Source: an uncultured virus (IMG/VR IMGVR_UViG_3300006358_000003)
Taxonomy: Duplodnaviria > Heunggongvirae > Uroviricota > Caudoviricetes
Strand: one strand, 5' to 3'
Virus record (IMG/VR): IMGVR_UViG_3300006358_000003
DNA length: 20,000 nt
Below, in pieces: positions 9,780 to 17,709 of this stretch. Every line of letters starts with the position of its first letter. Within the stretch, counting starts at the first letter, position 1. A program made the position numbers and the translations under genes. A model generated the notes under the pieces. The model saw only the letters and a list, made by a program, of their open reading frames with translations, ran no database searches and was not told the origin of the DNA.

Positions 9780-11450
9780 TCATGCTAGGCCGTATTCCTC
9801 GGCCACCGACCGCTTCCTGCCATGGAACCACAGCGCCGCGTCCTGCTCCGCCTCGACCTCGCTCGCCAACTGCGCCAGCCCGGTGCGCCGCATGTACATC
9901 AGCGCCTGCGTCGCCGTGTCGAACAGGTCGTCATGTCTCGCGCGCGGGAATTGGGCGACGTTGTCGATCATCAGGTCGGCCCATTTGGTCTTGGGCGCGT
10001 AGACCAGCCCGCCCGTGAACAACGGCACCACCGCATGCGCTCGCGCCGTCTTGTCCCCCTTGGGATCGATGGCGATGAGCTGAAACTCCTCCTCGCGGGT
10101 CAGGCGACGCAACTCCTGCACCACTGAGATGCCGGACGCCTTGCCCTCGACCAGCACCGCATCGGCTTCCCGCCCCTTGCGCCGCGCGGTCTCCTTGATG
10201 CGCTCGACCAGGTCATGCAGTTCGAGGCGCTCCTGCCAAGCGTGCAGCAGCATGATGCGCGGCCTGTTGCGCCACTCGAACACGCCCCAGACCGAGCACG
10301 CCGACCAGTCGTTCTGCTGCTTGTCTGTGTAGGCGGTGTCGACCGAGACGCAGATCCACTCGAAGTCGGGCAGGCGCGTGCGGGACCGCATCACGCCGTC
10401 GACCTCGACCTCGCGGACCCAACTGTCCTCCTCATCCTCCGGCGGCCAGACACACCACCAGTCACGTTTGATGATGCCGCCACCGCGTGGCTCCGGCCGC
10501 TGCTGGATCTGTGCGGAGAACGCGAACACCCCGAGCGCCTCGTCGACCGCGCGCTCGCTCGGCTTGTAGCGCGCCGGCCAGAAGTTCTCGCCGTCCTCGG
10601 TGCGCGGATCCTGCCAGAACAGATGGCCGTTGACGTAGGTGGTGTTGCGACGGTCGGACTCGAACCACGCCGGGATGCACAGATGCACAAGCTCGCGGCC
10701 ATAGCGGTCCAGCCAGTAGCCGGACAGGTCGCCCTCGGCCTGCCGCTGCATAATCATCACCTCGGCGCCGTGCTCCGGGGAGTTGCCGCGCGTTGACCAC
10801 ACCTCGCGGTAGGCGCGGATCACGCCATCCCGCACCAGGTCGGACTCGACCTCATCGGTCTTGTGCGGATCGTCCAGGATGCGGATCACGCCGCCCTTGC
10901 CCAGCGACTCCGGTATGCCGGTGTTGATGCGGGAGCCGCCGGCCGTGGTGTCGTATCGCTCCGCATTGTCTCGGTCGTCGGCGATCTGATACCGCTCGCC
11001 CCATCTGTCTTGATACCACTCTGTGCCGATGAGACGCCGGGCGGTCACACCATCCTCTTGCGCCTTGCGCGCGCCGTAGCTGCCGCACAGAAACCGCACG
11101 CCAGGCCCACGTAGCGGACGGTCGGCGTCTGGCTGCAGCGCCCAGGTCCACGTTGGCCACGCTATGGCAATGGCGCTGGTCTTAGCCGATCGCGGCCGGA
11201 TGTTGATGAGCAGCTTGCGGATGTCGCCGCGCGTGACCGCCTCGAGGTGCTCGCAGATGGCTTGTAGGTGCCAGCCACCGCAGAACGGCGCCGGGTCGAA
11301 CCATGGCCATGCGCGCTGCAGGAAGGTGTAGAGGCTGGCCTCGCACGCCAGCGCATCTTGCACGCGCAACTCCCGCTCGATCTCCGACAGGACGAATTGC
11401 GCGCTACCGCTGGACAGCAGATCGTCTAGGAAGGCGAGCGCCTCGCTCAT
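9780..11450 (-). CDS. terL: Terminase large subunit
   Basis: Walker A-like NIRPRSAKT, Walker B IRILDDPH, coupling motif IMQR. Nuclease domain motifs SVDTAY..DWSA, VEGKASG, DKTARA and HDDLFD. Start MSEAL at 11450 via an ATGA overlap. Confidence 0.93.
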   Translation of the reverse strand: MSEALAFLDDLLSSGSAQFVLSEIERELRVQDALACEASLYTFLQRAWPWFDPAPFCGGWHLQAICEHLEAVTRGDIRKLLINIRPRSAKTSAIAIAWPTWTWALQPDADRPLRGPGVRFLCGSYGARKAQEDGVTARRLIGTEWYQDRWGERYQIADDRDNAERYDTTAGGSRINTGIPESLGKGGVIRILDDPHKTDEVESDLVRDGVIRAYREVWSTRGNSPEHGAEVMIMQRQAEGDLSGYWLDRYGRELVHLCIPAWFESDRRNTTYVNGHLFWQDPRTEDGENFWPARYKPSERAVDEALGVFAFSAQIQQRPEPRGGGIIKRDWWCVWPPEDEEDSWVREVEVDGVMRSRTRLPDFEWICVSVDTAYTDKQQNDWSACSVWGVFEWRNRPRIMLLHAWQERLELHDLVERIKETARRKGREADAVLVEGKASGISVVQELRRLTREEEFQLIAIDPKGDKTARAHAVVPLFTGGLVYAPKTKWADLMIDNVAQFPRARHDDLFDTATQALMYMRRTGLAQLASEVEAEQDAALWFHGRKRSVAEEYGLA

Positions 11451-11701
11451 CGCCTGTACGGGTCCCCCTCCATTATGTCTTTTACGATGCGCGCCATAAC
11501 CGACAGGTCGAAATCGTTGCGGCAGGTATTCGCCATAGCGAAGCACAAGGCGAATAAGACATCAGCGTTCCGCTCGCCGGTAAGCAGGTCGCACAGGCTT
11601 TCAATGAGAGTAGCAGACAGGTCGAGGTCTGTATCATCCTGGACCGCCAGCCGTGCGGCCTCGATGCGAGCAACGTGCTGGATGTCGACTGGATCGCTCA
11701 T
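11447..11701 (-). CDS. Hypothetical protein (84 aa)
   Basis: Starts MSDPV at 11701. ATGA overlaps at both ends. Confidence 0.55.
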   Translation of the reverse strand: MSDPVDIQHVARIEAARLAVQDDTDLDLSATLIESLCDLLTGERNADVLFALCFAMANTCRNDFDLSVMARIVKDIMEGDPYRR

Positions 11702-12350: not shown

Positions 12351-12749
12351 TCACACGATCCCCAGCGCACGCTTGAGCAAAGTTGCGAGCGATGTGAGTT
12401 CGTCTGGCGTGAGTGCCGCAAGCGATACGCGCTGATTGCGATCGTCGCCGCTGTGATCGCGCGGTTTGCCGACGCCACGGTTGAGCACAGCCTCGGTGGC
12501 CATGAGGCGCACCCGGCTATCATCGTCGTGCATCAGTTGGACTTGGATAAGCGCAGCCTCTGGCGAGTTCGCAGCGCAGATCCGGCGCGCCTCGTGGTAA
12601 GCGGATAGATCGACCGGCCCGTTTGGATTGCCGGACTGACCAGGCTGATACGGGATTAGGCGGCCGTGCCCATGGGATGGAATGTGGACGGCTCTGCCAT
12701 CCTCTCTGTCATCAGAGCGCGGTTTCCTCAGCGCGGCCGACTTAGCCAC
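12351..12749 (-). CDS. terS: Terminase small subunit (DUF5681-like)
   Basis: PYQPGQSGNPNG motif followed by helices (SRVRLMATEAVLNRGVGKP). Lies upstream of terL. Confidence 0.75.
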   Translation of the reverse strand: MAKSAALRKPRSDDREDGRAVHIPSHGHGRLIPYQPGQSGNPNGPVDLSAYHEARRICAANSPEAALIQVQLMHDDDSRVRLMATEAVLNRGVGKPRDHSGDDRNQRVSLAALTPDELTSLATLLKRALGIV

Positions 12750-12927
12750 TGGCGGTTTCCTCCACGATTGCGGGCACTGGAAGCCAGAGCATTTGGAGGC
12801 TGGCGATATCCTTCCAGCACTGCTCTAGGCTGCCGTTGTTCCAGCGTAGTTGCGGGGTTAGGCGGAACATGACGCCGTCGACTAGGCGCGTTTGGACGCC
12901 GTCACGGTGGGTGACGATGTTGGTCAT
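12742..12927 (-). CDS. Hypothetical protein
   Basis: 61 aa. SD GAGAGG. Overlaps the terS start. Confidence 0.55.
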   Translation of the reverse strand: MTNIVTHRDGVQTRLVDGVMFRLTPQLRWNNGSLEQCWKDIASLQMLWLPVPAIVEETASG

Positions 12928-12947
12928 GCATTACCTCTCATTAGGAC

Positions 12948-12977
12948 TTGACACCCTAGGACATGTTGCGGTATGGT
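12948..12977 (+). promoter_or_regulatory. Sigma70-type promoter of the plus-strand operon
   Basis: TTGACA (12948-12953), 18-nt spacer, TATGGT (12972-12977). SD AGGAG at 12990-12994 and ATG at 13002. Confidence 0.7.
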
Positions 12978-13001
12978 TGCGTCGTTAACAGGAGACGACA
13001 G

Positions 13002-13193
13002 ATGGCCAAGACAACTTTCCAATATCGCGACCACGACATCATTCAGATACTGAAGATCAGCCGCTCGCCGCGCTTCGCAAACACCTTGGGATACACGGTC
13101 TATCGCTCTGGCGTTGCGGTTCACTTCCCCAACAGCATGCTTGAGGCAGTCCGTTGGATCGACAAAGCAGCTTGGAACAACACGGGGGCTTAG
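13002..13193 (+). CDS. Small hypothetical protein (63 aa), first gene of the plus-strand operon
   Basis: SD AGGAG; begins MAKTTFQYRDHDII. Confidence 0.7.
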   Translation: MAKTTFQYRDHDIIQILKISRSPRFANTLGYTVYRSGVAVHFPNSMLEAVRWIDKAAWNNTGA

Positions 13194-13228
13194 GCCCCCG
13201 CCTCCACCACCCTCACCAGGAGACGACG

Positions 13229-13390
13229 ATGACCGAGGAACAGATTGAGCGCCGGGTTGAGCGGATGGTTGACCAGCTTGACCGGGAATACCTGTCGTCT
13301 GGCATGACGGCTGACCACTACCAGCAGCGCATGAAGCAGATCGACGACTGGGCTTGGATGCAGAACTACGAGCGCCGGTTGAGCGCATAG
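13229..13390 (+). CDS. Small helical protein (53 aa)
   Basis: SD AGGAG; MTEEQIERRVERMVDQLDREYLSSGMTADHYQQRMKQIDDWA... Confidence 0.7.
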   Translation: MTEEQIERRVERMVDQLDREYLSSGMTADHYQQRMKQIDDWAWMQNYERRLSA

Positions 13391-13403
13391 AGGGAGAACG
13401 AAG

Positions 13404-13958
13404 ATGGCAAGCAACGAATTTGCAGGCAGCCTGTATCGCAACCAAGAAGCCATGGTGGACGCGATTGCGTATGCGTGGCTCGGGAGCGGCGGGATTTGCG
13501 GGGATGCAGAGCGGAAAATCCTGACTGAGATGACCGACGAACAGCTTGCGGCCGAGTGCATCCAGGGTTGGGAGTTGGATCAGCGGTCGGGCGAGAAGGA
13601 ATGGGAAGACCCGGCGGACGAGGACAGCGCCGAGGTTGAGTGCGCTGACAGCCACATGGAGGAGCAGGGTTACGACCGGGAGGATTTGGTCATTGCGTTC
13701 GCCAAGCTGCGGGAGAAGCTGCTTGCGGTGACTGTCGAGCAGTATGCGCCTGACGGGCATGAGCCTCCTGCCAGCGACCTGTTCCGCGCTGATTGTGCGA
13801 CGGTCGAGGAAGCCCGCGCTGTAATCCGGCAACGGATAGGGGTGCATTTCGATAGCCCGGACTGCCGCTGGTACTGCCCCGAGGATGGGGTGATCGAGGC
13901 TTACAACGAGAACGGCCACGCCGGGTGCGGCGGCTACGTCATTCGCGGGGAGGGCTGA
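13404..13958 (+). CDS. Strongly acidic hypothetical protein (184 aa)
   Basis: SD GGGAG. Asp/Glu-rich tracts such as EKEWEDPADEDSAEVE and MEEQGYDRED. Confidence 0.7.
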   Translation: MASNEFAGSLYRNQEAMVDAIAYAWLGSGGICGDAERKILTEMTDEQLAAECIQGWELDQRSGEKEWEDPADEDSAEVECADSHMEEQGYDREDLVIAFAKLREKLLAVTVEQYAPDGHEPPASDLFRADCATVEEARAVIRQRIGVHFDSPDCRWYCPEDGVIEAYNENGHAGCGGYVIRGEG

Positions 13959-13961
13959 CCG

Positions 13962-14174
13962 ATGAGAGCCAAACACCGAGTTATCGAACGCTTCCCAGAC
14001 GCGCGCCTCGTGGCGATTGATTACTGGGAGGATGGTTCTCCGCGCTACCAGCGCGTAGTCACGGGTGGGGAATGGGACACGACAATTCTGGACGTTCACG
14101 ACTGGGATGGTCAGCAGGGCGCGACTGCCGCATGGCGCAGCGCACATTCCTGGTGCAAGAGACACCCGGCATGA
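13962..14174 (+). CDS. Small hypothetical protein (70 aa)
   Basis: SD GGAGG; starts 3 nt after the upstream stop. Confidence 0.65.
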   Translation: MRAKHRVIERFPDARLVAIDYWEDGSPRYQRVVTGGEWDTTILDVHDWDGQQGATAAWRSAHSWCKRHPA

Positions 14175-14371
14175 CCGCGCCCGAGTTCCGTGCTGCGTTG
14201 GGCCGCGTTGGTGAGAGCCAGCGCGGTTTTGCGCGTTTGGTTGGCGTGGACGAGCGCACGGTGCGGCGGTGGGTTGCTGGCGCGGCGGAGGTGCCGCTGT
14301 GGGTGCCGCTGCTGCTCGGGCTGATGGAGCGTTCATCCGACCCTTCCCGCGCCGGGGCCGTGGGCGTCTAG
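14171..14371 (+). CDS. Small XRE/Cro-like HTH protein (Aca-like), last gene of the operon
   Basis: ATGA overlap. MTAPEFRAALGRVGESQRGFARLVGVDERTVRRWVAG is a typical HTH pattern. Confidence 0.8.
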   Translation: MTAPEFRAALGRVGESQRGFARLVGVDERTVRRWVAGAAEVPLWVPLLLGLMERSSDPSRAGAVGV

Positions 14372-14731
14372 CCTGTAGGCGTCGGCCCAGTCCGGATTGC
14401 GGGCGGCGTCCTCGGCTGCCTCGCGGGTGGGATACGACCAGCCGTCCAGGGTGCCATCCTCGGTAACGACGATCCACCGGCCATGCCGTTCGGCTACATG
14501 CCTCGTGCCGGGGCTGTGAGCGTCGCTGGCGGCGTCTAGCGTCTGCCCGCTATCCGATAACCTGGGAGCGCCCTGGCCGCCCTGTAGCGCGCTCTGAGGG
14601 GCGGCGTGGGCCTCGGCGTCGATGGCGTGGCGTGCGTCGATGATCGGCTGCCTGAGTGCGTCCGGCAGGTCGAACACCGCCAGCAGCGCATCGGCGACGA
14701 GGAGGAGCAGCAGGCGCTCGGCTTCGGTCAT
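14333..14731 (-). CDS. Hypothetical protein
   Basis: 132 aa. ATGA overlap. Its 3' end overlaps the HTH gene convergently. Confidence 0.5.
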   Translation of the reverse strand: MTEAERLLLLLVADALLAVFDLPDALRQPIIDARHAIDAEAHAAPQSALQGGQGAPRLSDSGQTLDAASDAHSPGTRHVAERHGRWIVVTEDGTLDGWSYPTREAAEDAARNPDWADAYRLDAHGPGAGRVG

Positions 14732-14952: not shown

Positions 14953-14979
14953 GGTGCGGCTCCTGCGTCGGGGTGGGTC

Positions 14980-15151
14980 GCGTCAATTCCTGCGTCAATT
15001 CCTGCGTCAATTCCGGGCGTTGTGCCTGCCATGTTGGGGGGCAGCGGGGATGGCTGCGTCAATTTTACAGGGCCTTTAGGCCCTGAATTGACGCACCCCG
15101 CCCCCCGGCGGCCCAACGCTGCGTCAATTATGCTGCAATTATGCGTCAATT
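14980..15151. repeat. Iteron cluster and palindrome; candidate replication origin
   Basis: GCGTCAATT at 14980, 14992, 15004, 15056, 15121 and 15143, inverted at 15086-15094, and degenerate at 15132. Directly downstream of the helicase gene. Confidence 0.75.
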
Positions 15152-15157
15152 CTCGGG

Positions 15158-16387
15158 TCATTGATGCGGTCTCTTTCCGTCGTTGACGCGGACGCCAGTG
15201 CGGGCATTGCGGTGCTCATCCTTGAACGCCTCGCGGTAGAGCAGCCCGGACTTAAGCCACTCTCCGATCATGTGACTTGCCTGCTTCTCGCCCATGCCGA
15301 GGTCAACCAGGACCTGGCCGGCCCACCTCGAGTTGTCGCGGCCGGCGCGTGTCGGAGAGTAGAGCCAGCCAGCGGGCGGCGTAGCGATAATGTCGAGGGC
15401 TTCGTTCAGTTGTACGCCGGTCAGCTTCACGTCCACGACGGGGGGAGACCAGACTGCAACGGCTGCTACGTTGTCGCCGTTTGGGTAGAGACCTTTGCCG
15501 TTTCCCAGGGCTTGCTGGGCCAGCCTGAACCAGCGCGCCTTCCCGGCGGGGGCCATGTTGCGCTTGGCATCGTCCAGCCTGACGTACTGCCAGCGGTCCT
15601 CCTCAGAGACGCCGAACAGATCGCCGTCTTCCTTCGTCATGGGGGAAAGCAGGAGGCCGACACGCGAGCTGTCGGTCAGGGCCTTGGCGCCGCGGGCGGC
15701 GTCAATGCCTGACGCCTCCCCCTTGCGGACGTGATGGACCAGTAGGATCGCAGCATCGGTGGCGCGGGCCACCCGGCGCCATGCCGCGGCGGCTTTGACC
15801 ATCTGGGGGTTGTTGTTCTCCTCGAGCGAGTGGCTTTCGGCGAACGGGTCGCAGATGATCAGGCCGATGTTGTTCGCCTTAACCTGCTCGATCATGGCGG
15901 CTTCGTCGGGGTGGATGATTGTGTATCCGTCATCACCGACTGCCGCCATGGTTAGGCCGCGGCCTTCGCTGTCGTCCAGGAACAGGTGCCCGTCGAGGTC
16001 GGGGCGGGCGATGTGGTGCTGAATCATCAAGGCGGCTAGGCGACGCTCCAGCTCGTCCATCGGGTCTTCAAGGTTGATGATCGCGGCGTTGACGCGCTCG
16101 AATATCTTCTCGCCGAGGATGTCGCGGCCCGAGGCGCACGCCACACCGACGCCCATGGCATAGGACGACTTGCCGGTTCCGCCGGGTGCTACCAGGACGG
16201 TCACGAAGCCTCGCACGAGTTGGGTGCCATAGAGCCAGCGCCTGGGGTTGATATTGCACGGGTCTGGCAGTCGTGCAGGGTGAAGGACCAAGGGAGGCCG
16301 TTCCTTGGCCTCGGCTCCACCAACGACACGAAGCTCGGGCTTGGATGCGCCGGCCGCGTATGCGTTCCAGATGGGTTCATGGTCCAT
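15158..16387 (-). CDS. AAA_25/RepA-like (RecA-fold) replicative helicase with C-terminal putative DNA-binding domain
   Basis: Walker A APGGTGKS, NLEDP, Walker B IICDPF, LVHHVRK, ARGAKAL and KRNMAP. Confidence 0.85.
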   Translation of the reverse strand: MDHEPIWNAYAAGASKPELRVVGGAEAKERPPLVLHPARLPDPCNINPRRWLYGTQLVRGFVTVLVAPGGTGKSSYAMGVGVACASGRDILGEKIFERVNAAIINLEDPMDELERRLAALMIQHHIARPDLDGHLFLDDSEGRGLTMAAVGDDGYTIIHPDEAAMIEQVKANNIGLIICDPFAESHSLEENNNPQMVKAAAAWRRVARATDAAILLVHHVRKGEASGIDAARGAKALTDSSRVGLLLSPMTKEDGDLFGVSEEDRWQYVRLDDAKRNMAPAGKARWFRLAQQALGNGKGLYPNGDNVAAVAVWSPPVVDVKLTGVQLNEALDIIATPPAGWLYSPTRAGRDNSRWAGQVLVDLGMGEKQASHMIGEWLKSGLLYREAFKDEHRNARTGVRVNDGKRPHQ

Positions 16388-16847
16388 AGCGCCGCTTCCT
16401 TGGCGCATCTGGCAGTGCATCCCACACCGTCGCTGCGGCGTGATCGTTAACCTCCCCTTCGGTCAGGTGAAACCCTGTTGCGCCGTTAACCCCATGGGCT
16501 TCGGCGAGTATGGCGTTCTTCGGCGCCTGCCGGGCAATCAACGGCTTGATCGTATCGGCGAGCTGGCGGCGTACGTCGTCGCCGATCTTCCGGCGCCATC
16601 GGACGTGGTTGCGCAGCGTCTGCCATGCGGCCTCGAGTAGCGCGTCAGGATCAGGCAGCTTGGCGGCCTCGATTGCCAGCGCGGCGTAGGCTTGGCTGCC
16701 GGTCATGTGCCCTCGCATTACGGGCTTCGCCATGGAGCCAGCCAGGGCATGTACTGCGTCGTGGTCAGGGTCTGGCACCAGCGCGCGCAGTTTGGGCGGC
16801 AGGCTGTCGCGAGCTGCCCGGCGCTCGGTGATGGTGAGTTTGGTCAC
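16377..16847 (-). CDS. Hypothetical replication-module protein (156 aa)
   Basis: Probable GTG start at 16847 with SD GAGGTG. Helical, and overlaps the helicase start. Confidence 0.55.
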   Translation of the reverse strand: MTKLTITERRAARDSLPPKLRALVPDPDHDAVHALAGSMAKPVMRGHMTGSQAYAALAIEAAKLPDPDALLEAAWQTLRNHVRWRRKIGDDVRRQLADTIKPLIARQAPKNAILAEAHGVNGATGFHLTEGEVNDHAAATVWDALPDAPRKRRYGP

Positions 16848-17070: not shown

Positions 17071-17286
17071 TCATGGCAGCCACTCCCGCTTGATGTCCGT
17101 CCACACGCGGTCGCAGCCATCGAGGCGCACTTCTGCATCACAGCCAGGGCCGTGGATGGCGGCGCGGATGGAAAACTCATTACGGGCGCTTTCTGCTACA
17201 GCGTGCCTAGCCCAGCGCTCAGCGGCGACAAACGTGGGGAAGCAGCGGGAAGCGGTATCCGTCGAGACGCGCCACGGGTGCTTCAC
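17071..17286 (-). CDS. Hypothetical protein
   Basis: 71 aa. GTG start with SD GGGAGG. Confidence 0.5.
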   Translation of the reverse strand: MKHPWRVSTDTASRCFPTFVAAERWARHAVAESARNEFSIRAAIHGPGCDAEVRLDGCDRVWTDIKREWLP

Positions 17287-17358
17287 GCCGCCCTCCCTTG
17301 CGCCGAATCCGTTGCGTCGCGTGCGGTCAGACCGGTTTGCAACCGGGAGGACCAGGGC

Positions 17359-17709
17359 GTGCGCGATCCGATCGACAAAATGCAGCCGTGGACCATCAAG
17401 TCTATGTCCACCGAGGCGCGTGACATGGCCGTCATAGCGGCGCGACGCGAGGGGCTGACGGTCGGCCAGTGGCTCGAGCGGGTGATCCGCGAGGCGGCGT
17501 CCGACCCGGTTGCAAACAAGTCTGCCCGGTATAACGCTTTCACGGAAAGCGTGAAAGACGCCCCGGACGTGGTGCGCCTAGCCCCTTTGGTGGAGCAAAT
17601 GCCCAGGTGGCTGCGGGCGGCGCTATGGCGGCGGGTGGCGGGCGAGCTCGGCGTCCAGGCGCCGGCCGGGCGGACGCGGAAGGCGCTGGAGGGGCCTGAC
17701 GCGCGATAA
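17359..17709 (+). CDS. Ribbon-helix-helix-like protein resembling the PodJ N-terminal motif (116 aa)
   Basis: SD GGGAGG then GTG at 17359. Contains PWTIKSMSTEARDMAVIAARREGLTVGQWLERVIRE. Confidence 0.65.
   Translation: MRDPIDKMQPWTIKSMSTEARDMAVIAARREGLTVGQWLERVIREAASDPVANKSARYNAFTESVKDAPDVVRLAPLVEQMPRWLRAALWRRVAGELGVQAPAGRTRKALEGPDAR

What the first reader, a model, noticed from the sequence alone, without database searches (positions are those of the whole stretch)
12942..14371. Candidate anti-defence (acr-aca-like) operon: strong promoter, four small unknown genes, terminal HTH
Seen: a plus-strand operon inserted against the genome's direction, with a consensus TTGACA promoter, strong SDs, four unrecognised proteins (63, 53, 184 and 70 aa) and a translationally coupled 66-aa HTH gene. 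Known: acr-aca loci have this layout, and Aca proteins repress via inverted repeats in the promoter. Inference: the four genes are candidate new anti-CRISPR, anti-restriction or host-takeover proteins.
Basis: partly seen in the sequence, partly recalled or inferred. Interest (0 to 1): 0.8.

Follow-up and report, generated by a model that had tools for sequence, protein, structure and literature searches.

The report
Self-repressed swappable phage gene cassette
A soil phage carries an optional, apparently self-silencing gene cassette built like known anti-CRISPR operons, whose small cargo genes are swapped or lost among close relatives, making them plausible but unproven blockers of bacterial immunity.

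Summary
The operon is real: promoter at 12948-12977, four ORFs and a coupled 66-aa HTH. New here: a predicted operator, TAGGRC-N5-GYCCTA, sits over the -35 box (12942-12958), with a decayed second copy in the spacer. It has the same TAGG-N9-CCTA geometry as the Aca1 operator, and the HTH keeps the two arginines that Aca1 uses to read the GG. The cassette is accessory. One relative has the same promoter and HTH around one unrelated gene, another lacks the cassette, and a soil assembly shows a deletion allele. ORF3 is a fusion of two stand-alone families with no recognised fold. No cargo protein matches a known Acr, and none of 271 neighbouring ORFs in related loci hit a Pfam family named as an Acr. 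ArdA, Mom, Lar-like and P22 gp17-like genes occur occasionally. In bacterial genomes, relatives of the HTH often follow small membrane proteins instead. Verdict: an Aca1-like autoregulated cassette (regulation about 85% likely); counter-defence cargo about 50%, anti-CRISPR specifically about 15%. A variant of a known kind, of moderate interest.

The parts
12942..12958 (+). Predicted operator O1 (TAGGAC-N5-ACCCTA), an inverted repeat straddling the -35 box
   Evidence: Only match with 1 or fewer mismatches to TAGGRC-N5-GYCCTA in the window, 0.04 expected; top-ranked site with a matrix built from 12 non-window sites; one soil contig diverges from the window immediately left of 12942
12948..12977 (+). 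Sigma70-type promoter, -35 TTGACA, 18-nt spacer, -10 TATGGT
   Evidence: 10/12; conserved in L003 up to one base past the -10 box
12957..12973 (+). Decayed second operator O2 in the spacer, 15 bp after O1, ending in the TA of the -10 box
   Evidence: 2 mismatches, 4th-ranked by the matrix; same 15-bp tandem with 0-1 mismatches in L154 (twice), L041 and L055
12989..12999 (+). RBS box CAGGAGACGAC, repeated at 13217-13227 before ORF2 and present before the L003 cargo
13002..13193 (+). ORF1, 63 aa, basic (pI 10), no relative found other than an identical copy
13183..13200 (+). 7-bp GC hairpin around the ORF1 stop codon, no U tract; not significant against shuffles (z -1.5)
13229..13390 (+). ORF2, 53 aa, acidic; member of a family common in phage small-gene clusters
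   Evidence: 32 IMG/VR loci; neighbours
13404..13958 (+). ORF3, 184 aa, pI 4.2; fusion of a ~105-aa acidic helical module (residues 1-107) and a ~75-aa alpha/beta module (residues 110-181), each mostly found alone
   Evidence: 155 hits split between the two halves; models with pLDDT 93 and 94; no significant fold match
13962..14174 (+). ORF4, 70 aa; one 59%-identical relative found
14171..14371 (+). 66-aa XRE-like HTH, predicted autorepressor, translationally coupled to ORF4
   Evidence: bridge to Aca1 through the L028 HTH
12742..12927 (-). Left flank: 61-aa ORF ahead of a DUF5681-like (probable terminase small subunit) gene at 12351-12749
   Evidence: DUF5681 E 0.003, below cut-off; in the empty-site relative L193 it is the C-terminal part of one 135-aa frame
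14333..14731 (-). Right flank: 132-aa ORF whose N-terminal part resembles the N-terminal part of the 135-aa frame at the empty site

Best explanation
An accessory, autoregulated early-expression cassette of the acr-aca type, inserted antisense between the replication and packaging genes of a soil phage. When the DNA enters a cell with no repressor, the promoter fires and the cargo is made in a burst. The last, coupled gene makes an Aca1-related HTH dimer that binds O1 over the -35 box (and weakly O2) and shuts the promoter. Repression would also limit unterminated rightward transcription running head-on into the leftward phage genes. The cargo slot is exchangeable. The most likely role of at least one cargo protein is to counter a host defence, not necessarily CRISPR. 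Shown from sequence: layout, operator motif, cargo exchange, empty site. Inferred: binding, repression, timing and cargo function.
For: Same promoter and HTH start with a single unrelated 104-aa cargo in L003. Empty site in L193. In run X9, one contig joins 12978 to 14171 with room for 334 nt, equal to the L003 cargo span, and another skips 13073-13948. Operator found upstream of 9 of 68 relatives with an xERTVRR-type helix and downstream of 0 of 64. Aca1 operator is TAGG-N9-CCTA and its two G bases are read by R44 and R47 (PMC8633003 passages); these align to R29 and R32 here through the L028 HTH (Aca1 E 2.8e-8; hhalign 97.7%). ORF3-N relatives have a family HTH within 1.1 kb downstream in 3 of 8 distinct viral loci, ArdA nearby in L060 and Mom in L069. 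ArdA follows an ORF2 relative in L094. A Lar-like gene and a P22 gp17-family gene lie directly upstream of HTH relatives. ORF2 and ORF3 are small and acidic.
Against: No cargo protein matches an Acr or other anti-defence family by sequence or by fold. No Pfam family named as an Acr among 271 distinct neighbour ORFs. At least 15 of 36 genome loci of the HTH follow a small hydrophobic protein. ORF2 relatives have a family HTH within 1 kb downstream in only 2 of 31 loci, one of them the query's own partner. None of 4 genome loci of ORF3-N showed a family HTH. 59 of 68 xERTVRR-type loci lack the N5 operator at 1 mismatch, and the pattern was chosen after seeing the data. O2 is decayed. Nothing was tested experimentally.
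Confidence: 0.5

Rival explanations
1. Same autoregulated cassette, but the cargo are host-takeover or phage-fitness proteins (inhibitors or modulators of host transcription, replication, division or metabolism) unrelated to immunity.
For: ORF2 relatives sit in generic small-gene clusters of many unrelated phages, mostly without the HTH. No anti-defence homology for any cargo. PMC9410906 (passages) reports that most aca-like genes lie without nearby acr genes.
Against: Wholesale cargo turnover among near-identical phages fits an arms race better than a core takeover function. The few annotatable neighbours lean towards anti-restriction.
Confidence: 0.25
2. A moron for superinfection exclusion, phage-versus-phage conflict or lysogenic conversion, kept at a set level by autoregulation.
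For: Opposite-strand insertion with its own promoter. Genome-borne relatives of the HTH often follow small membrane-anchored proteins. A gene of the Pfam family named 'superinfection exclusion gene product 17' precedes one HTH relative.
Against: None of the four cargo proteins, nor the L003 cargo, has a strongly hydrophobic segment (maximum 1.41 against 1.66-2.71). No terminator insulates the unit. A temperate lifestyle was not shown. From recall, not checked here, P22 gp17 overcomes exclusion rather than causing it.
Confidence: 0.15
3. A mobile promoter-HTH unit that captures small ORFs with little or no benefit to the phage; the cargo is largely neutral.
For: A close relative lacks it; a deletion allele that truncates ORF1 and removes ORF2 and ORF3 was assembled at depth 20.
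Against: All ORFs are intact with good SD sites. The ORF2 and ORF3 families are conserved at protein level across many phages and both ORF3 modules fold confidently. The stretch is held at half or more of its words in 5 studies besides the possible source.
Confidence: 0.1

Closest known systems
acr-aca1 operons (Pseudomonas phage JBD30; Aca1 structures 7c0g, 7fa3, 7vjm; PMC8633003)
   Same: Promoter, small cargo genes, terminal short HTH; two operators; half-sites ending TAGG and CCTA with 9 bp between; S-Q-R at helix 2 and the R44/R47 pair aligned to R29/R32.
   Different: The window HTH does not hit Aca1 directly at E up to 10; a profile gives E 0.097. It lacks Aca1's N-terminal DPDPRY stretch, Y48 and the R59 loop, and the inner operator bases differ. 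The two operators overlap at a 15-bp period. The leader is about 18 nt, too short for the Aca1 RNA motif described in PMC13551039. No known acr in the operon.
Aca10 (7xi5; acrIC7-acrIC6-aca10; PMC9410881) and Aca3 (9vt3)
   Same: Similar size and XRE-like HTH; weak profile hits at E 0.018 and 0.12; inverted repeat inside the promoter.
   Different: Scores are no better than for HigA antitoxins and other HTH proteins; the Aca10 operator sequence and spacing differ.
Aca-regulated operons of unknown genes (PMC13551039, 2026)
   Same: That paper reports that fewer than half of the genes under predicted Aca1/Aca2 control have assigned functions, and that Mom and restriction-modification genes occur among them (Results read in full).
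   Different: It covers Aca1-12 and Aca14; whether this HTH lineage or these cargo families are in its supplements was not checked.

Membership tests
acr-aca operon | Small genes followed by a terminal HTH gene in one operon behind a sigma70 promoter | tested here: met
acr-aca operon | Inverted repeat overlapping the core promoter and tracking with the HTH family | tested here: met
   the motif was chosen after viewing the data, but the matrix used 12 non-window sites
acr-aca operon | Cargo variable next to a constant regulator | tested here: met
   L003, L193 and run X9 alleles
acr-aca operon | At least one cargo gene, or cargo of a close homologue, is a known acr | tested here: inconclusive
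   No hit in Pfam, PHROGs, NCBIfam or PDB for the cargo; none in Pfam for 271 neighbours. No dedicated Acr library was on hand. One weak lead: the C-terminal module fused to an ORF3-N relative (P0077) resembles AcrIC4 at E 0.41 whole and 0.049 alone, below designed-repeat hits
acr-aca operon | The HTH binds the operator and represses the promoter | not testable with these tools
   Needs EMSA and reporter assays
acr-aca operon | Cargo inhibits CRISPR-Cas | not testable with these tools
   Needs plaque or plasmid-interference assays
Aca1 family | Significant sequence similarity to Aca1 | tested here: not met
   Not listed at E up to 10; profile E 0.097; linked only through an intermediate
Aca1 family | GG-reading arginines R44 and R47 and backbone-gripping S31-Q32-R33 | tested here: met
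   R29, R32 and S16-Q17-R18 by alignment
Aca1 family | GGCAC half-site read by V45, Y48 and R59 | tested here: not met
   Half-sites here are GGACT and GGGTG; the aligned residues are T30 and R33, and the R59 loop is absent
Aca1 family | 5' UTR RNA hairpin ending about 20 nt before the first start codon | tested here: not met
   Predicted leader about 18 nt, no stable fold (z +0.87); motif description. The start site is inferred from the -10 position
Aca2 to Aca14 | Match to the family HMMs | tested here: inconclusive
   Only families with PDB chains or library models could be hit; weak hits to Aca10 and Aca3; AcaFinder HMMs not available

The most novel reading that the evidence does not exclude
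The HTH marks an unnamed Aca1-related regulator lineage with its own operator (TAGGRC-N5-GYCCTA) that is spread through soil and alphaproteobacterial phages. Its cassettes deliver uncharacterised counter-defence proteins, and the ORF3 N-terminal module (a conserved acidic fold with over 100 clusters at 50% identity and no structural match) is a new inhibitor family, possibly a nucleic-acid mimic or anti-CRISPR. The operator plus HTH would then be a new bait for mining anti-defence genes outside Gammaproteobacteria.
Probability: 0.3. Interest if true: 0.75.

Novelty: new variant of a known kind. Interest (0 to 1): 0.45.

Why it matters
Aca-guided searches are a main route to new anti-CRISPR and other anti-defence proteins, and the known baits come mostly from a few host groups (background knowledge). 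This locus gives a testable regulator-operator pair, five cargo modules with no recognised family, and natural alleles (full, swapped, deleted, empty) in near-identical phages. If the cargo is counter-defence, dozens of cassettes fetched here become candidates. If not, it shows that Aca1-like regulators are general cargo switches and weak predictors of anti-CRISPR function. The architecture itself is well known, and this scan has noted many similar cassettes.

Tried and rejected
No whole genome is held for the window, so genome position, lifestyle and further operators outside the window were not examined. Pfam, PHROGs and NCBIfam gave no hit above cut-off for ORFs 1-4. The word-indexed protein search found only ORF3 itself; the full HMMER scan was needed. 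ESM Atlas gave no usable hit for ORF3 whole or residues 1-108. Fold searches: ORF3-N best Z 5.3, with AcrF6 at Z 4.1 (rmsd 3.8, 73 aligned) among unrelated rows; ORF3-C best Z 4.4, with chains of 8g9s (Z 3.2) and 9lkj (Z 3.0) in the noise; Foldseek had no E under 0.001. These are not treated as evidence either way. tblastn of ORF2, ORF3, an ORF3-N relative, an ORF2 relative and the L003 cargo against GenBank phages, and of ORF3 against plasmids, gave nothing significant. A recalled likeness of P0104's fused module to AcrIC5 found no PDB support; L157's cargo likewise. No locus search could be run for ORF3-C, so its gene neighbourhoods are unknown. ORF2 was not found in 301 genomes of the family of G002. 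No RNA holder was listed, which says nothing on expression. Hairpins in the leader, after ORF1 and after the HTH are not significant. Host not established: capsid matches in 4 of 301 genomes, best 39% identity. Literature searches did not turn up a description of this HTH lineage, but they were keyword searches and supplements were not read. A link between DUF932 and anti-defence was not found among the 8 papers listed. No complex prediction was run.

Full report
Context. The window is part of a tailed-phage genome of about 65% GC. Minus-strand genes include an AAA_25 primase/helicase-type gene (15158-16420), a terminase large subunit (9780-11546) and a major capsid gene (1476-2384; 54% to an uncultured phage, 38% to Pelagibacter phage HTVC023P). 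The 132-aa ORF at 12351-12749 has a sub-threshold DUF5681 hit and by position is probably the small terminase (inference). The stretch is held at half or more of its sampled words by 7 of 14 listed runs, all soil or rhizosphere; two may be the source, leaving five studies. The host is not established. The closest genome-borne HTH relatives are in a Rhodopila MAG and an Acetobacteraceae chromosome, and ORF3-N occurs in 3 of 301 genomes of that family (family name inferred from the record title of L105), but the capsid has only distant matches there.

Observation. The promoter TTGACA-18-TATGGT is the best of three hits in the window, though three hits are no more than chance gives (2.2 expected). 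No terminator follows the HTH. Gene callers extend the HTH by 13 residues (P0165), but the family alignment starts at the Met at 14171.

The cassette is accessory and its cargo is exchanged. IMG/VR locus L003 is nearly identical through the left flank and promoter, diverges one base after the -10 box, shares the RBS box, and carries one unrelated 104-aa gene coupled to an almost identical HTH start. L010 is an identical copy as far as its contig goes. L193 has the 61-aa left-flank sequence at 93% identity and no cassette: there the two flanking ORFs are one continuous 135-aa frame. Laying four runs on the region (I chose 4 of 14) showed the full cassette in one contig of X3. In X9, one contig joins 12978 to 14171; its length leaves 334 unaligned bases, exactly the L003 cargo span. 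A second X9 contig skips 13073-13948 with 36 other bases in place, keeping the ORF1 start, ORF4 and the HTH. Read by hand, those bases begin like the end of the ORF3 N-terminal module, which suggests a deletion from an allele with the N module alone (inference from one contig). The same contig has different sequence immediately left of 12942, so the cassette's left edge coincides with the first operator base.

Operator. Promoters upstream of HTH relatives often carry an inverted repeat ending in the TA of the -10 box. With the pattern TAGGRC-N5-GYCCTA at one mismatch or fewer, 9 of 68 dereplicated loci with an xERTVRR-type helix have a site in the 1.3 kb upstream and 0 of 64 downstream; five more have an N4 version; 1 of 7 and 1 of 28 loci in the other two classes have one, and that last one (L073) in fact has an RTVR helix (window, L003 and copies excluded; loci with under 700 bases upstream dropped). 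The pattern was chosen after seeing these data, and many of the 68 are distant HTH proteins that share only the helix. In the window the only such site is 12942-12958 (0.04 expected; 9 of 200 shuffles reach one). A matrix from the 12 non-window sites ranks it first (14.7 bits) and 12957-12973 fourth (9.9 bits, behind two unrelated sites). The same pair of operators at a 15-bp period, one over the -35 and one in the spacer, occurs with 0-1 mismatches in L154 (two promoters), L041 and L055; one 2-mismatch hit in L144 looks like chance.

Relation to Aca proteins. In PMC8633003 (passages) the Aca1 operator has TAGG and CCTA separated by 9 bp, R47 and R44 read the two G bases, and there are two operators. 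The window HTH does not hit Aca1 directly, and a 13-sequence profile gives only weak hits to Aca10 (E 0.018), Aca1 (0.097) and Aca3 (0.12), comparable to HigA antitoxins. However, the L028 HTH, found with that profile, hits Aca1 at E 2.8e-8 and aligns to the window subfamily at 97.7% probability over 45 columns. Through it, R29 and R32 correspond to R44 and R47 and S16-Q17-R18 to S31-Q32-R33, while V45, Y48 and the R59 loop are not kept, matching the different inner bases. So it probably works like Aca1 but is not filed as Aca1. The Aca10 operator differs (PMC9410881 passages). The leader is too short for the Aca1 RNA motif (PMC13551039 Results; fold).

Cargo. None of the four ORFs has a library hit above cut-off. 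ORF1 (pI 10) has no relative but its own copy in IMG/VR. ORF4 has one 59% relative. ORF2 belongs to a family found at 32 viral loci, usually in clusters of small unknown genes; a family HTH lies within 1 kb downstream in only 2 of the 31 other loci, one being L018, which was in the query. ORF3 gives 155 hits among 50%-identity representatives; of the 150 listed, most cover residues 1-107 and about twenty cover 110-181, mostly as separate proteins, some fused to other modules. Both halves fold confidently without a significant structural match. Of 12 viral loci for ORF3-N, 8 remain after removing the window's copy, one weak hit and two apparent duplicates: three have a family HTH within 1.1 kb downstream, one has it upstream, one has a MazE-like gene downstream, one has ArdA about 0.8 kb upstream and one of the three also has Mom. 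Four genome loci show no family HTH. One relative (P0077) is fused to a module whose only PDB hit at E up to 1 is AcrIC4 (E 0.41; 0.049 alone, behind designed repeat proteins): a lead only.

Guilt by association is thin. I scanned 271 distinct neighbour ORFs with Pfam: 69 (65 of the 69 listed plus 4 added), 126 of 129, 24 hand-picked, 53 of 60; 82 proteins also went to PHROGs. No family named as an Acr appeared. Annotated hits were ArdA (L007, L060, L094), Mom (L069), Lar-like (L024), P22 gp17 family (L141), a DNA methylase (L034), DUF932 (L075, L154) and ordinary phage genes; the great majority had no hit. I had no matched control for how often ArdA lies near arbitrary small phage genes. Against the anti-defence reading, 25 of 301 family genomes hold the HTH, and in at least 15 of the 36 genome loci examined the gene just upstream is a 41-89-aa protein with a strongly hydrophobic segment (15 of 18 hand-picked ORFs). 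The window's cargo has no such segment. PMC9410906 (passages) notes that most aca-like genes lack nearby acr genes and that strong acr transcription interferes with downstream phage genes.

Mechanism and verdict. The best reading is a burst-then-off cassette: unrepressed transcription on entry, then shut-off by the coupled HTH bound over the -35 box, which would also limit transcription that, lacking a terminator, runs against the leftward genes on both sides (inference). I put autoregulation at about 85%, counter-defence cargo of some kind at about 50%, and anti-CRISPR specifically at about 15%. The architecture is known (PMC13551039 describes many Aca-controlled unknown genes; its supplements were not read and could already hold this lineage), and earlier notes of this scan list at least eight similar cassettes (unchecked AI notes). 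What is particular here is the predicted operator code linking an unnamed HTH lineage to Aca1, the four natural alleles of one locus, and a two-module acidic protein from families with no recognised fold.

Noticed in passing
L104:2124-2545, L105:2763-3192, L199, L213, L215, L217, L219, L224, L228, L229; also viral L011, L023, L045: A recurring two-gene module, mostly in genomes of the family of G002: a 60-90-aa protein with a C-terminal hydrophobic segment coupled to the same HTH family, sometimes behind the same operator (L104). No Pfam hit above cut-off. Could be an undescribed exclusion, toxin or membrane module.
   Followed up: partly
L206, L207, L208/L226, L212 (about 170-300 nt upstream of the HTH): 41-44-aa hydrophobic peptides upstream of HTH relatives in small genomes, with a gap of about 165 nt; layout reminiscent of type I toxin-like peptides (recalled resemblance, untested).
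   Followed up: no
window 14972-15160: Repeats of a 12-nt unit ending GCGTCAATT (6 copies) plus a 32-nt inverted repeat just after the helicase gene; L193 has a different repeat (ATGTCCC-like) at the same position. Candidate replication origin that co-varies with the helicase.
   Followed up: no
L161-L165, L172, L181: An HTH subfamily with a one-residue-longer turn (RDERTVRRW) goes with the same half-sites spaced by 4 instead of 5 bases, a possible spacing code.
   Followed up: partly
Run X9, contig 26, left of window 12942: The different left flank begins with the reverse complement of a -35 box, suggesting a second, divergent promoter in that allele (table 7).
   Followed up: no
L154:801 and L154:1337: Two copies of the tandem-operator promoter drive separate small operons (one with DUF932) upstream of a single HTH, as in multi-operon control by Aca proteins.
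   Followed up: partly
P0015, P0095: Proteins made of two or three tandem repeats of the ORF3 N-terminal module.
   Followed up: no
window 17152-17709 (+): A 185-aa plus-strand ORF with no library hit amid minus-strand genes; a possible second opposite-strand gene.
   Followed up: no
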